From the NCBI GenBank assembly GCA_001507855.1, contig LGEN01000009.1, forward strand, positions 10,621 to 74,620: a DNA stretch of 64,000 nt, given 5' to 3'. Under the pieces are notes generated by a model. That model was given only the letters and a program-made list of their open reading frames with translations, had not been told where the DNA came from and did no database searches. The translations under genes were made by a program, and so were the position numbers. This document shows, one piece after another, positions 4,030 to 7,386 of this stretch (positions are counted from its first letter, which is position 1; every line of letters begins with the position of its first letter). Origin of the DNA: Halomonas sp. 54_146 (GTDB lineage Bacteria; Pseudomonadota; Gammaproteobacteria; Pseudomonadales; Halomonadaceae).

Positions 4030-4719
4030 ATGACCGCCAAGACCGTTCTGATTGTCGATGATGAGTCGTCGATTCGCGAGATGATCGCGGTAGCGCTGGA
4101 AATGGCTGATTATCGCGTACTCGAAGCAGATAACGCCCAGGATGCTCATGCCATGGTGGTTGACCATCAACCCGACTTGCTGCTGCTTGACTGGATGATG
4201 CCCGGCACCAGCGGTATTGAGCTTGCCAGGCGCTTAAAGCGTGAAGAAACGACTGCCGATATCCCTATTATTATGCTGACCGCGAAAGGCGAGGAAGATA
4301 ATAAGATTCAAGGGCTTGAAGCCGGCGCTGACGATTATATTACGAAGCCTTTTTCGCCCCGTGAGCTAGTCGCACGGTTAAAGGCGGTGCTACGTCGTGC
4401 GACCCCGCGTGGCGTTGAAGACCCCATTGAGGTTAACGGCCTGTTGCTTGATCCGGTGAGCCATCGGATAAGCGCACACGGCAAAGCGTTGGAAATGGGC
4501 CCTACTGAATATCGTCTGCTGCAGTTTTTTATGACCCATCAAGAGCGCGCCTACACGCGCAGCCAGCTGCTTGACCAGGTGTGGGGTGGCAACGTTTACG
4601 TTGAAGAGCGCACGGTAGATGTGCATATTCGTCGGTTGCGCAAAGCGTTGGGCGAAGTACATCAACATCTGATTCAAACGGTTCGGGGCACCGGTTACCG
4701 TTTCTCTGCTCGGGGGTAA
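4030..4719 (+). CDS. phoB: Phosphate regulon response regulator PhoB
   Basis: Receiver [10 protein letters not shown]; OmpR tail [14 protein letters not shown] and [10 protein letters not shown]. Confidence 0.97.
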
Positions 4720-4721
4720 AT

Positions 4722-6026
4722 GTGCGCTTATGGAGCCGTGAGCTGTGGCGCTTAGCGTGGCTAGCCGCACTAGGTGCTAGCGTTGGCTGGCTACTGGGTG
4801 CGGCTGGGCTTGGGCTGGCTGTTGGGCTTGCGGTATGCCTGTTTTATCACCTGCGGCAGTTGCGTGCTTTGTACCAGTGGCTAACCCTTCACCCCCACGA
4901 TGAACCGCCTGCCGCACAGGGCATGTGGGGGGAAATGTTTGATCGGTTATACCGCTATCAAAAAAGCCAGCGCATTACTCAGAACCGGCTACGCGCTACG
5001 TTAGCGCGTATTCAAGAATCATCTGAAGCGATGCGCGACAGCGTGGTGATGCTTGACCGCCACGGTGATCTTGAATGGTGGAACAGCGCGGCGACTAACA
5101 TGCTAGGGCTGCAAACCGCCCATGACCGCGGCCAGCACATTACTAACTTGCTACGCGATCCGAGCTTTATTAGCTACTTTAATGCGTGCGACTATAGTGA
5201 GCCGCTAACGCTAAGGTCGCCGATTGATGAACGCTGTATCCTGCAGTATCAAATCACGTTGTACGGTGATGACGAGCGGCTTGTCATGGCGCGGGATATC
5301 ACCCGCTTGCATCGTCTGGAGCAGATGCGCCGTGATTTTGTCGCTAACGTCTCCCACGAGCTGCGCACCCCTTTAACGGTTCTTTCCGGTTATTTAGAAA
5401 CTTATAGCGATTTAGCTGAGCAGCTCCCGCCGCGCTTAGGCAAGGGTATTCATCAAATGCAGGAGCAAACTCAGCGAATGCAGAATTTGGTGAATGATTT
5501 ATTGCTGCTGTCCCGCTTAGAGATTGACCAAGGCGGTAAAGATCATCACCCGCTGTTAATGGCACCATTACTGCAGAGTGTTTGTAATGATGCGCTGGCG
5601 TTATCGCATCAGCGTCATAGTATTACCGTTGCCGTCGAAAGCGATGCTCGTTTGCTGGGCAGTGAGCAGGAGATTCGCAGCGCTGTTTCTAATCTCGCCT
5701 TTAATGCGGTTCGCTACACTCCCCCTGGCAGTCATATCACGTTACGTTGGAAAGCACTGCCTGATGGCGGCGGCTGCATTGACGTTGAAGATAACGGTGA
5801 AGGCATTGACCCGGTGCATATTCCTCGCTTAACCGAGCGGTTTTACCGTGTCGATAAAGGCCGCAGCACCGCGACCGGCGGCACGGGTTTAGGGTTAGCC
5901 ATTGTTAAGCACGTGCTATTGCGACACGATGCGCAGCTGCAAATTGAATCCCACCCCGACAAAGGGGCCGTGTTCCGTTGTGTTTTCCCCGCCTCACGTT
6001 TTCTCCTATCAGAAACATATGCCTAG
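4722..6026 (+). CDS. phoR: Phosphate regulon sensor kinase PhoR
   Basis: H-box FVANVSHELRTPLTV; FYRVDKGRSTATGGTGLGLAIVKH; follows phoB. Confidence 0.97.
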   Translation: MRLWSRELWRLAWLAALGASVGWLLGAAGLGLAVGLAVCLFYHLRQLRALYQWLTLHPHDEPPAAQGMWGEMFDRLYRYQKSQRITQNRLRATLARIQESSEAMRDSVVMLDRHGDLEWWNSAATNMLGLQTAHDRGQHITNLLRDPSFISYFNACDYSEPLTLRSPIDERCILQYQITLYGDDERLVMARDITRLHRLEQMRRDFVANVSHELRTPLTVLSGYLETYSDLAEQLPPRLGKGIHQMQEQTQRMQNLVNDLLLLSRLEIDQGGKDHHPLLMAPLLQSVCNDALALSHQRHSITVAVESDARLLGSEQEIRSAVSNLAFNAVRYTPPGSHITLRWKALPDGGGCIDVEDNGEGIDPVHIPRLTERFYRVDKGRSTATGGTGLGLAIVKHVLLRHDAQLQIESHPDKGAVFRCVFPASRFLLSETYA

Positions 6027-6170
6027 CGCATAATGCTTGCAGACATACTACGTGTAGAAGTGGGCAGTATCGGCACCAGCTTGGTAAAGCGGTGCGCATG
6101 TGCCATTTTTACACAACTTTTGGTGCCCCTTATATGTAGTTATGCGCTTTTTTGGGCGCATTTTTTATTG

Positions 6171-6229
6171 TAAATAACTGATTATAAATTGGTTATTTTT
6201 TATTATGGCTACATGGCATACCTTCTGCA
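6171..6229 (+). promoter_or_regulatory. Sigma54 -24/-12 promoter with upstream IHF site
   Basis: TGGCAT-ACCTT-CTGCA at 6214-6229 (GG-N10-GC); 6171-6183 reads AATCAGTTATTTA on the minus strand, matching WATCAR-N4-TTR. Confidence 0.65.
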
Positions 6230-6239
6230 GGTTTCTATT

Positions 6240-6559
6240 TAAGATGGAACGAGCGGTACTGGCATTACTACCGGGTGCGTCGACAGGGAGTCGCGCGCAA
6301 GGCATTAACGAAACATTTGGTAACAAAACATTGCAATTTTCGCAAAACATTTTACAATTGAAATGTAAGCGAACCATGCGTGAGCATGTCAAACCGAAAA
6401 GGATGCACAACGATTCAAGGAATGAATAAAACGGCAATCAAAACGCTAGTCAGGGTGTAAATCCAAGGTTGGAGTCCCGCAAACGGAAAGGAAGCTAGCG
6501 TTAGTTATTGTCAATAGGTTGTGTATTAAGACCCTGCTTAGGCGGGGTCTCATTTTTTT
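6240..6559 (+). ncRNA. Candidate sigma54-dependent small RNA (ANGGA-rich)
   Basis: Lies between the sigma54 promoter and an intrinsic terminator, with no downstream plus-strand gene; six ANGGA motifs; 8-bp stem AACGCTAG/CTAGCGTT. Confidence 0.5.
6529..6559 (+). terminator. Rho-independent terminator
   Basis: AGACCCTGC-TTAG-GCGGGGTCT followed by CATTTTTTT. Confidence 0.85.
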
Positions 6560-6654: not shown

Positions 6655-7386
6655 CTAGGTTGGCGTAATATTGCGCATGTCTCTGTAGTGGTCGTCCCAC
6701 ATCAGTACCGCACCCGCAACGGCACCTGGGAGTAGAAATAAATTAGCCAGTGGCACCCAGGTGATCAGCGTGACCAGTCCGCCAAAGCTGAGGCTTTGCC
6801 ACCAGCGCTTAGCGAGCCGCTGCCGCATGTCGGTAAACGTCACCTTGTTGTTATCCATTGGGTAATCTAAATAGGTGATTGCCATTATCCAGGCAGAAAA
6901 CAACGCCCACAGCAGTGGGGCAACTAAATTCACGCCTGGAATCCAGCTAAGCACAAACAGGCCAGCGGCGCGCGGCAGAATATAGGCGAGCTTAACAAAC
7001 TCACGCCCAACGGCATCGATAGCTGTTTTAGTCAGGTTTCGGTCATCAATAGGCGCGCGGCCAGTCGCTTGAATTTCAACCTTCGCGGCCAAAAAGCCGT
7101 AAAAAGGTGCCGCAATTAAGCTGGTCACCAGCGTGAAAGTGAAAAACACTACGATCAACAGGCTAATAACAAAAAGCGGCCAGATAAGCCACGATAGCCA
7201 ATCAAGCCACGCGGGCACCATGCCCATCCAATGAGCCAACCAACCATCGAAGCGGTTGAGCACAAAGCTGAACATGCTGACGTAAACGATCAGGTTGATC
7301 AAAATAGGCAGGAAAATATAGCGGCGCATACCCGGTTGATACACTTGGCGTGTACCTCGGCTAAGCGCAGTGACGGCATCCAGCAT
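6655..7386 (-). CDS. cysZ: CysZ / EI24-domain membrane protein
   Basis: LIAAPFYGFLAAKVE, YLDYPMDNNK, WVPLANLFLLPGAVAGA motifs. Confidence 0.85.
   Translation of the reverse strand: MLDAVTALSRGTRQVYQPGMRRYIFLPILINLIVYVSMFSFVLNRFDGWLAHWMGMVPAWLDWLSWLIWPLFVISLLIVVFFTFTLVTSLIAAPFYGFLAAKVEIQATGRAPIDDRNLTKTAIDAVGREFVKLAYILPRAAGLFVLSWIPGVNLVAPLLWALFSAWIMAITYLDYPMDNNKVTFTDMRQRLAKRWWQSLSFGGLVTLITWVPLANLFLLPGAVAGAVLMWDDHYRDMRNITPT

What the first reader, a model, noticed from the sequence alone, without database searches (positions are those of the whole stretch)
6073..6559. Unannotated sigma54/IHF-driven, ANGGA-rich small RNA candidate between phoR and cysZ
Seen: an IHF-consensus site (6171-6183), a correctly spaced -24/-12 element (6214-6229), NtrC-like half-sites upstream (GCACCA-N3-TGGT at 6073-6085, TTTTGGTGC near 6118-6126), then about 320 nt with no convincing gene, ending in a strong terminator (6529-6559). 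The next gene is on the opposite strand. The transcript has six ANGGA motifs (6244, 6285, 6399, 6417, 6483, 6488), A-rich tracts and an 8-bp stem (6442-6449/6495-6502). Established: clustered ANGGA motifs define CsrA/RsmA sponges, and sigma54-dependent sponge RNAs (CrcZ) exist in pseudomonads. Inference: a CsrA or Hfq titrating RNA controlled by an enhancer-binding protein, an unusual combination.
Basis: partly seen in the sequence, partly recalled or inferred. Interest (0 to 1): 0.65.

Follow-up and report, generated by a model that had tools for sequence, protein, structure and literature searches.

The report
Sigma-54-linked CsrA-sponge small RNA
Between phoR and cysZ lies an unannotated, structured, GGA-rich small RNA found almost only in Vreelandella (Halomonas sensu lato); it most likely soaks up the global regulator CsrA and, unusually for such RNAs, sits behind a conserved sigma-54 promoter instead of a GacA box.

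Summary
The conserved core is shorter than proposed: a ~195-nt RNA (about 6365-6559). A covariance model finds it in 82 of 101 genomes of the genus, in 1-2 copies, always between phoR and cysZ in the loci examined, and in no other genus apart from one weak hit. Its helices show compensatory changes, and many of its invariant bases lie in GGA/GGG motifs in loops or single strands. csrA is present. Rfam has no match and there is no GacA box.

The -24/-12 element, the IHF site and two upstream activator sites are conserved in all 25 units aligned. In most relatives this promoter first transcribes a ~100-aa secreted acidic protein gene, with the GGA module behind it and no terminator in between. 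This genome has deleted the gene(s), so the promoter is fused to the RNA. A conserved sigma-70-like promoter (6331-6358) also precedes the core.

The "NtrC half-sites" are not conserved. The conserved activator motif, CATGTGYCATT, recurs beside an orphan NtrC-family two-component system elsewhere in the genome, and that system co-occurs with the RNA.

Verdict: a new Csr/Rsm-type sponge family with probable sigma-54 input.

The parts
6060..6076 (+). Distal upstream activator site (GTGGGCAGTATCGGCAC; family consensus GTGTGYCA-N4-5-TGGCA)
   Evidence: Position-conserved in the 25 units aligned. This genome differs from the consensus at about 3 positions.
6097..6107 (+). Proximal upstream activator site CATGTGCCATT, 117 nt before the -24 element
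   Evidence: Nearly invariant in all 25 units. It occurs only 5 times in the 3.56-Mb genome. One other copy lies 108 nt before a sigma-54-like promoter next to an NtrC-family regulator gene.
6142..6167 (+). Terminator-like hairpin plus T-run, probable end of the phoBR transcript
6171..6183 (-). IHF-consensus site (AATCAGTTATTTA on the - strand)
   Evidence: The matching position in relatives reads YAANNNNTTGATW. It lies between the enhancer sites and the promoter.
6214..6229 (+). Sigma-54 promoter TGGCAT-N6-CTGCA (GG 6215-6216, GC 6227-6228); expected +1 near 6240
   Evidence: Present about 190 nt after the phoR stop in all 19 genomes examined, and before each tandem unit. It differs at 1 of 16 bases from the unit-1 promoter of G013.
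6240..6330 (+). Degenerate leader and deletion scar: remnant of the leader motif (UAAGAUGGA), of a Shine-Dalgarno sequence (AGGGAG 6285-6290) and of the last codons of the type-2 small ORF (..AACATTTGGTAA 6312-6323); no ORF left
   Evidence: Comparison with intact units. No other species shares 6121-6310. No homologue of the small proteins remains in this genome.
6331..6358 (+). Predicted sigma-70 promoter TTGCAA-16-TACAAT
   Evidence: The hexamers are kept at a fixed distance (-43/-44) before the RNA in all type-2 copies (TTGCAA-16-TACRAT), and as TTKACA/TTGCAA-16/17-TACGCT in most single-copy genomes, with variable spacers.
6365..6559 (+). Core small RNA (~195 nt), Csr/Rsm-type sponge candidate; the sigma-54 isoform would span 6240-6559 (~320 nt)
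   Evidence: Conserved in 82 of 101 genomes of the genus. Structure supported by covariation. MFE z-score -3.2.
6375..6388 (+). 5' hairpin CATGC-GTGA-GCATG (tetraloop); in type-1 copies a GGGGC-AAGGAU-GUCCC hairpin is aligned at this position
6399..6403 (+). GGA motif 1 (AAGGAUGC; relatives read CA(A/G)GGAUG)
   Evidence: G12, G13, A14 and T15 are invariant or nearly invariant in alignment A1.
6412..6428 (+). Hairpin GAUUC-AAGGAAU-GAAU(A) with GGA in the loop
   Evidence: Helix 1: 92% of cells paired, 2 pairs with compensatory change.
6433..6438 (+). 5' strand of helix P2 (GGCAAT), pairs with 6507-6512
   Evidence: Helix 2: 5 of 7 pairs with changes on both sides (e.g. AU 17 / GC 16).
6442..6449 (+). 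5' strand of helix P3 (AACGCTAG), pairs with 6495-6502; encloses the GGA-rich multiloop
   Evidence: Helix 3: 5 of 8 pairs with changes on both sides.
6450..6494 (+). Invariant GGA-rich core: UCAGGGU, UCCA-AGGU-UGGA mini-hairpin, single-stranded ACGGAAAGGAAG
   Evidence: Many of the invariant columns of A1 lie here.
6495..6512 (+). 3' strands of P3 (CTAGCGTT 6495-6502) and P2 (ATTGTC 6507-6512)
6529..6559 (+). Rho-independent terminator (9-bp stem, 7 U)
   Evidence: Helix 6: 6 of 9 pairs with compensatory change.

Best explanation
Window ~6365-6559 encodes a ~195-nt structured small RNA of a new family that is almost confined to the genus Vreelandella. It works as a Csr/Rsm-type sponge. Five to seven conserved GGA/GGG motifs are held in a hairpin loop, a mini-hairpin and a single-stranded multiloop by covarying helices. 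They bind CsrA dimers and so relieve CsrA control of its target mRNAs.

The RNA has two transcriptional inputs:
1. A sigma-54 promoter (6214-6229) with an IHF site and two enhancer sites. It gives a ~320-nt isoform that carries two further GGA motifs. It is probably activated by an orphan NtrC-family two-component regulator encoded at G000:C38:100161-102421.
2. A probable internal sigma-70 promoter (6331-6358), which gives the core RNA.

In most relatives the sigma-54 promoter first transcribes a small secreted acidic protein gene, and the GGA module is its 3' extension. In this genome a deletion removed the protein gene(s) and fused the promoter and leader directly to the RNA.

Shown: conservation, structure, motif invariance, promoter architecture, gene loss, and co-occurrence with the regulator.
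Inferred: CsrA binding, use of both promoters, and the identity of the activator.
For: RNA is real and structured:
- Found in 82 of 101 genus genomes, in 1-2 copies. It lay between phoR and cysZ in all 19 genomes whose flanks were examined.
- On 41 copies, 93.8% of cells are paired against 31-48% for slid controls. 18 pairs show compensatory change against 5-8. 97 cells are compensatory against 13-29.

Sponge character:
- Many invariant columns lie in GGA/GGG motifs.
- One motif sits in a 7-nt hairpin loop, and relatives carry CA(A/G)GGAUG hairpins.
- ANGGA density is in the top 0.09% of genome windows.
- csrA is present, 85% identical to E. coli CsrA.

Sigma-54 input:
- UAS, IHF site and TGGCAY-N6-xTGCW are conserved in 25 of 25 units with variable spacers.
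- rpoN and 6 enhancer-binding proteins are in the genome.
- No terminator lies between the promoter and the RNA here, or between ORF and RNA in G021.
- At least 6 species (G018 clade) and G154/G188 keep the promoter directly before the RNA with no ORF.
- Type-1 copies in tandem genomes lack any good sigma-70 promoter.

Activator:
- The same CATGTGYCATT and GTGTGTCA sites, an IHF site and a -24/-12-like element lie next to the NtrC-type regulator/kinase pair in this genome and in all 24 relatives that have it.
- Co-occurrence across 31 genomes: regulator+/RNA+ 24, +/- 1, -/+ 0, -/- 6.

Sigma-70 promoter.
Against: - No transcript, TSS or binding data.
- No detectable homology to Rfam CsrB/CsrC/RsmX/Y/Z and no GacA box, so assignment to the class rests on motifs alone.
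- The plain GGA count (7 in 320 nt) is only modestly above what composition predicts. The argument rests on invariance and placement.
- In this genome the leader is degenerate and the junction is unique to the species, so the sigma-54 promoter could be a decaying relic. The distal enhancer and the IHF site each carry mismatches to the family consensus.
- Co-occurrence of RNA and regulator is confounded by phylogeny.
- The putative -10 hexamer is flanked by short complementary segments in several lineages. This could mean the stretch is RNA, not a promoter.
Confidence: 0.6

Rival explanations
1. The RNA is a CsrA sponge made only from its own sigma-70 promoter. In this strain the sigma-54 promoter, IHF site and enhancers are the orphaned control region of the lost small-protein gene(s) and contribute nothing functional.
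For: - Relatives place a ~100-aa ORF between the sigma-54 promoter and the RNA.
- This genome has lost all three paralogous small-protein genes.
- The leader is degenerate and species-specific.
- The distal enhancer and the IHF site carry mismatches.
- A conserved sigma-70-like promoter precedes the RNA.
- In G154 and G188 the second RNA copy survives with only the sigma-70 promoter.
Against: - The -24/-12 element and the proximal enhancer are still perfect.
- No terminator separates them from the RNA, so any firing yields a longer RNA isoform.
- Independent ORF-less lineages keep the sigma-54 promoter at a fixed 137-138 nt before the RNA, with varying spacers.
- The candidate activator is retained.
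Confidence: 0.25
2. The RNA is not a protein sponge. It is a base-pairing (Hfq-type) small RNA, or another structured RNA, whose conserved single-stranded G-rich core pairs with C/U-rich mRNA sites.
For: - It has a strong terminator with a long U-tail and a conserved, unpaired 45-nt core.
- There is no homology to known Csr/Rsm RNAs.
Against: - The invariant bases are repeated GGA/GGG units, not one long seed.
- The motifs match the CsrA preference (GGA in short hairpin loops, CA(A/G)GGAUG).
- Related sigma-54 mRNAs in the genus end in GGCUC-AAGGAU-GAGCC hairpins and have GGA-flanked Shine-Dalgarno sequences. This fits a shared CsrA theme.
Confidence: 0.12
3. The interval encodes a small protein (the 61-codon ORF from 6244, or the 74-codon ORF from 6205).
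For: Open frames exist.
Against: - There is no Shine-Dalgarno sequence.
- The 5' part lies in unconserved DNA.
- The frame runs through the promoter hexamers and into RNA helices that are conserved by compensatory change.
- Relatives have indels there.
- The real small ORFs of relatives are absent.
Confidence: 0.02

Closest known systems
RsmY/RsmZ/RsmX (Pseudomonas) and CsrB/CsrC (Enterobacteria, Vibrio): CsrA/RsmA-sequestering small RNAs
   Same: A 100-350-nt RNA with several GGA motifs in hairpin loops and single strands, and a Rho-independent terminator. Copies can be duplicated in tandem. CsrA is present in the genome.
   Different: No sequence or structure match to any Rfam model of these families. 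No GacA/UvrY box (TGTAAGN6CTTACA), although perfect boxes exist elsewhere in this genome. The architecture differs: two long-range helices enclose a GGA multiloop. A sigma-54 promoter lies upstream.
CrcZ/CrcY (Pseudomonas; CbrB, sigma-54 and IHF-dependent Hfq/Crc sponge)
   Same: A protein-sponge RNA behind a sigma-54 promoter with an IHF site and enhancer sites, controlled by an NtrC-family response regulator. The size is comparable (~320-400 nt).
   Different: CrcZ carries A-rich (AANAANAA) Hfq motifs, not GGA, and lies next to cbrB. The enhancer consensus differs (CbrB TGTTAC-N14-GTAACA against CATGTGYCATT here). There is no Rfam CrcZ match.
Other sigma-54/EBP-dependent small RNAs: Qrr1-5 (LuxO), GlmY (GlrR plus IHF), NrsZ (NtrC)
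   Same: An enhancer-dependent promoter drives a non-coding RNA. Like GlmY, it may have overlapping or nested sigma-54 and sigma-70 promoters.
   Different: Those are base-pairing RNAs or an RapZ decoy, not CsrA sponges. There is no sequence relationship.
3'UTR-embedded regulatory RNAs and mRNA-borne CsrA sponges (for example the Salmonella fimAICDFGH leader; 3'UTR-derived small RNAs such as CpxQ)
   Same: In relatives the GGA module is the 3' extension of a protein-coding mRNA. A third paralogous mRNA family ends in a GGA hairpin just before its terminator.
   Different: Here the module has become a free-standing RNA with its own promoter. In this genome it has lost the coding part altogether.

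Membership tests
Csr/Rsm-type CsrA-sequestering sRNAs (functional class) | Several GGA motifs, a number of them in loops of short hairpins or in single strands | tested here: met
   GGA at 6401, 6419 (7-nt hairpin loop), 6471, 6485 and 6490; GGG at 6453; AGG in the loop at 6466-6469. All are invariant or nearly invariant in 23-41 copies.
Csr/Rsm-type CsrA-sequestering sRNAs (functional class) | A CsrA/RsmA protein encoded in the same genome | tested here: met
   tblastn finds C38:160986-161162, 85% identical to E. coli CsrA over 59 aa.
Csr/Rsm-type CsrA-sequestering sRNAs (functional class) | Direct, multivalent binding of CsrA and titration of its activity | not testable with these tools
   Needs EMSA, RIP-seq or reporter assays.
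Rfam CsrB / CsrC / PrrB_RsmZ / RsmY / RsmX families (homology) | Match to the family covariance model at or near the gathering score | tested here: not met
   The only hit is a 14.3-bit match of the terminator to RsmY (gathering score 57). Nothing reaches gathering threshold in the whole window.
GacA/UvrY-dependent Csr/Rsm genes | Upstream activating box TGTAAGN6CTTACA about 60-80 nt before the start | tested here: not met
   No box with 1 mismatch or fewer lies on this contig. Eleven such boxes (four perfect) exist elsewhere in the genome. Only a half-site, TGTAAG, lies at 6365-6370, downstream of the -10 hexamer.
Sigma-54/EBP-dependent sRNA genes (CrcZ, Qrr, GlmY, NrsZ type) | -24 GG / -12 GC element with canonical spacing, conserved across relatives | tested here: met
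   TGGCAT-N6-CTGCA at 6214-6229. The same element is present in 25 of 25 units with variable spacer sequence.
Sigma-54/EBP-dependent sRNA genes (CrcZ, Qrr, GlmY, NrsZ type) | Upstream enhancer sites and a DNA-bending (IHF) site; rpoN and an EBP in the genome | tested here: met
   Two conserved sites at about -155 and -117, and an IHF site at about -43. rpoN plus 6 EBPs are present. The same sites occur next to one EBP gene.
Sigma-54/EBP-dependent sRNA genes (CrcZ, Qrr, GlmY, NrsZ type) | Transcript start about 12 nt after the GC, dependent on rpoN and the EBP | not testable with these tools
CrcZ family (Hfq/Crc sponge) | Repeated A-rich CA motifs; Rfam CrcZ model; location next to cbrB | tested here: not met
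   No Rfam match. The A-rich tract 6322-6362 is the sigma-70 promoter region. The neighbours are phoR and cysZ.

The most novel reading that the evidence does not exclude
This is the first CsrA-sponge RNA family placed under an enhancer-binding protein and sigma-54. It arose from the GGA-rich 3' UTRs of a family of sigma-54-dependent small secreted acidic protein mRNAs. It wires an uncharacterised envelope- or ion-sensing two-component system of Vreelandella directly into the global Csr network. In this strain the coding part has been discarded and only the regulatory RNA is kept.
Probability: 0.4. Interest if true: 0.75.

Novelty: new variant of a known kind. Interest (0 to 1): 0.6.

Why it matters
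- Csr/Rsm sponges described so far are, to my knowledge, mainly under GacA/UvrY-type control with sigma-70 promoters. A sponge driven by an enhancer-binding protein would give the Csr network a new kind of input: tight on/off control tied to a specific signal.
- The Csr system of Halomonas/Vreelandella is described as uncharacterised (PMC12889724). These bacteria are used as industrial chassis, so knowing their CsrA antagonists is of practical use.
- The locus gives a natural series across species: mRNA with a GGA 3'UTR, then ORF plus RNA with its own promoter, then RNA alone. This series shows how a free-standing sponge RNA can evolve from a 3'UTR.
- It gives a testable regulon for an orphan two-component system.

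Tried and rejected
- Rfam searches of the interval, the whole window, relatives' units and two other loci found no family.
- GacA-box control was rejected. No box lies here, although perfect boxes exist elsewhere.
- NtrC control via GCACCA-N3-TGGT was rejected because the palindrome is not conserved.
- The coding reading (61- or 74-codon ORFs) was rejected.
- Pfam and NCBIfam have nothing for the relatives' small proteins. NCBIfam has nothing for the locus-2 lipoprotein.
- An outer helix P1 (GGAUGCACAAC / GUUGUGUAUU) seen in the MFE fold could not be supported across subtypes and is not claimed.
- Genome-wide ANGGA density alone is a poor detector: the other top windows checked are coding repeats or lie next to coding sequence.
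- A search for a species sharing this genome's deletion junction found none among 101 genomes.
- Literature searches found no described Halomonadaceae Csr small RNA and no sigma-54-dependent Csr/Rsm RNA.
- Earlier notes of this scan hold no look-alike sequence.
- The hairpin overlapping the putative -35 in the G018 clade is nearly invariant. It therefore cannot decide between an RNA structure and a promoter.

Full report
**Setting.** The window carries phoB (4030-4719) and phoR (4722-6026) on the + strand. A 628-bp gap follows, then cysZ (6655-7386), phoU and pstB on the - strand. The genus is therefore Vreelandella, that is Halomonas sensu lato.

**Observation check.**
- the IHF match at 6171-6183
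- TGGCATACCTTCTGCA at 6214-6229
- six ANGGA motifs at 6244, 6285, 6399, 6417, 6483 and 6488
- the 8-bp stem 6442-6449/6495-6502
- the terminator at 6529-6559

Rfam has no match at gathering threshold in the window. In the interval it gives only a 14-bit match of the terminator to RsmY.

**What is conserved.**
- BLAST against 40 relatives found the 3' part (about 6390-6558) in 18 of 24 other genomes of the genus. It always lies between phoR and cysZ, and eight genomes carry two tandem copies 0.9-1.2 kb apart.
- A covariance model built from 23 copies (R1) finds the RNA in 82 of 101 genomes of the genus, in one or two copies.
- In a sample of 24 other genera of the family it gives only a single weak hit.
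- This genome has one copy.

**Structure.** On a model-based alignment of 41 copies I scored a structure of six helices: the GGA hairpin, two nested long-range helices P2 and P3, two small inner helices, and the terminator.

| Measure | Proposed structure | Slid controls |
|---|---|---|
| Cells paired | 93.8% | 31-48% |
| Pairs with changes on both sides | 18 | 5-8 |
| Compensatory cells | 97 | 13-29 |

- P2 (6433-6438/6507-6512) switches between AU and GC at two positions in roughly half of the copies.

**Sponge signature.**
- Many of the invariant columns fall in GGA/GGG units: AAGGAUG at 6399, the loop of GAUUC-AAGGAAU-GAAUC at 6412-6428, UCAGGGU, the UCCA-AGGU-UGGA mini-hairpin, and single-stranded ACGGAAAGGAAG.
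- Relatives add hairpins such as GGGGC-AAGGAU-GUCCC. From my own knowledge, these match the CsrA SELEX preference RUACARGGAUGU.
- Four ANGGA in 180 nt is reached by only 0.09% of sampled genome windows.
- csrA is present.
- This genome also has perfect GacA boxes elsewhere, one followed by a different GGA-rich RNA candidate. None lies at this locus.
- I therefore file the RNA as working like a Csr/Rsm sponge, but not as a homologue of any Rfam Csr/Rsm family.

**The sigma-54 promoter.** Aligning 25 units from 19 genomes shows four elements at fixed positions, with variable sequence between them:
- a distal site, GTGTGYCA..TGGCA
- a nearly invariant CATGTGYCATT, 117-121 nt before the promoter
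- an IHF site, YAANNNNTTGATW
- TGGCAY-N6-xTGCW

This is a textbook enhancer-dependent promoter. The NtrC-like GCACCA-N3-TGGT of this genome is not kept in relatives.

**What the promoter drives in relatives.**
- In most relatives it is followed by a conserved leader. The leader carries GGA motifs, two crossing complementarities and a GGA-flanked Shine-Dalgarno sequence.
- A ~100-aa ORF comes next, with a signal peptide and an acidic tail. It occurs as two paralogues: type 1 (MMSKELLKKAGILGVSFGLMASPLAFA...) and type 2 (MFNVFVKK...DLTHDEGDGNVW).
- The GGA module follows the ORF with no intervening terminator.
- Pfam and NCBIfam have no family for these proteins.

**What happened in this genome.**
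- The promoter here matches the unit-1 promoter (15 of 16 bases identical to V. titanicae unit 1) and sits at the unit-1 position.
- The RNA is of type 2. It is preceded by the last codons of the type-2 ORF (..AACATTTGGTAA against ..AACGTTTGGTAA) and by a Shine-Dalgarno remnant.
- A deletion running from leader 1 to the end of ORF 2 has therefore fused promoter 1 to RNA 2.
- No other species shares the junction.
- The genome has no homologue of any of the three small-protein paralogues.

**Does the sigma-54 promoter serve the RNA?**

Evidence for:
- No terminator lies between about 6240 and 6529.
- Six species of the G018 clade have no ORF. They keep enhancer, IHF site and promoter exactly 137-138 nt before the RNA, with varying -24/-12 spacers.
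- G154 and G188 have independently lost ORF 1 yet keep promoter 1 directly before RNA 1.
- Type-1 RNA copies in the tandem genomes have no convincing sigma-70 promoter.

Evidence against:
- A sigma-70-like promoter (TTGCAA-16-TACAAT, 6331-6358) is conserved at a fixed distance before all type-2 copies and most single copies, with variable spacer.
- RNA 2 of G154 and G188 survives with that promoter alone.
- This genome's leader is degenerate.

I conclude that nested sigma-54 (~320 nt) and sigma-70 (~195 nt) transcripts are the most likely arrangement. The relic-promoter reading is the main rival.

**Candidate activator.**
- CATGTGYCATT occurs five times in the genome.
- One copy, at C38:99161, is preceded by GTGTGTCACAACG. 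It is followed by an IHF site and TGGCGC-N5-TTGTA, 108 nt downstream. Then comes an acidic lipoprotein gene. An NtrC-family response regulator and an AtoS/ZraS-like kinase lie convergently next to it.
- That arrangement is conserved in all 24 relatives that have the regulator.
- Across 31 genomes, regulator and RNA co-occur: 24 have both, 6 have neither, 1 has the regulator only, and 0 have the RNA only. Shared ancestry inflates this association.
- The genome has only six enhancer-binding proteins, plus rpoN.

**Wider family.** A third paralogous small-protein locus in other Vreelandella genomes also has a sigma-54 promoter and a related enhancer. Its mRNA ends in GGCUC-AAGGAU-GAGCC just before the terminator. 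This suggests that the free-standing RNA evolved from GGA-bearing 3' UTRs of this gene family.

**Limits.**
- The literature I could search describes no Halomonadaceae Csr small RNA and no sigma-54-dependent Csr/Rsm RNA. Absence from that library is not proof of novelty.

Noticed in passing
G000:C38:99100-99960 (locus L088, outside the window): A second enhancer-dependent unit with the same CATGTGCCATT and GTGTGTCA sites and an IHF site. In this genome its leader holds a 12-nt tandem repeat, GATATGGATGTA/GATAGGGATGTA, of about 7 full copies (99330-99415). Each copy carries a GGAUGU motif, so the repeat could be a second CsrA-binding array. It lies ahead of an acidic lipoprotein gene (99522-99959). 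Relatives lack the repeat.
   Followed up: partly
G000:C38:100161-102421 (outside the window): An orphan NtrC-family response regulator and an AtoS/ZraS-like histidine kinase. All NCBIfam hits fall below their cut-offs. The pair lies next to proVWX and a BCCT transporter. It is the candidate activator of both sigma-54 units.
   Followed up: partly
G000:C38:148784-149150 (locus L087, outside the window): A perfect GacA box, TGTAAGAGATATCTTACA, after a likely enolase gene (my reading; not checked). It is followed by a hairpin and a ~190-nt GGA-rich stretch (CAGGGA, CAAGGAC, CAGGAUG, UAAGGAG...) with its own terminator. This is a probable canonical GacA-dependent Csr RNA, and it too has no Rfam match.
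   Followed up: partly
G000:C52:133430 and C52:144211 (outside the window): Two perfect GacA boxes lie ahead of paralogous protein genes that both begin ..QQLYIAYYGRPADP.. These boxes sit before coding genes, not small RNAs.
   Followed up: no
Relatives, e.g. L020 (G021) 2000-2110 on the - strand; L009 995-1095: The conserved 5' leader of the small-ORF mRNAs has two crossing complementarities (AAGGAAGA/UCUUCCUU and ACCGC/GCGGU) around a variable hairpin followed by a U/C-rich run. It looks like a pseudoknot or an attenuator/antiterminator switch. GGA motifs flank the Shine-Dalgarno sequence.
   Followed up: no
Relatives, L115-L138 (e.g. L124 1240-1880): A third paralogous family of small acidic secreted proteins (MMKTESLKKLGILGVSFGLMASPLAFA..., poly-Glu tail). 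It has its own sigma-54 promoter, a CATGTGCCTATT enhancer and a GGA-hairpin 3'UTR. It is absent from the window's genome.
   Followed up: partly
window 5560-5575: TGGCACCATTACTGCA, a perfect -24/-12 match, lies inside the phoR coding sequence and is probably coincidental. Likewise, TGGCATTTTAGGTGTA recurs inside the signal-peptide codons of the relatives' small ORFs.
   Followed up: no
window 6353-6368: The putative -10 hexamer, TACAAT, sits in the loop of a 6-bp inverted repeat (ACATTT/AAATGT). Analogous short complementary flanks surround TACGCT in other lineages. This could be an operator or an RNA hairpin.
   Followed up: no
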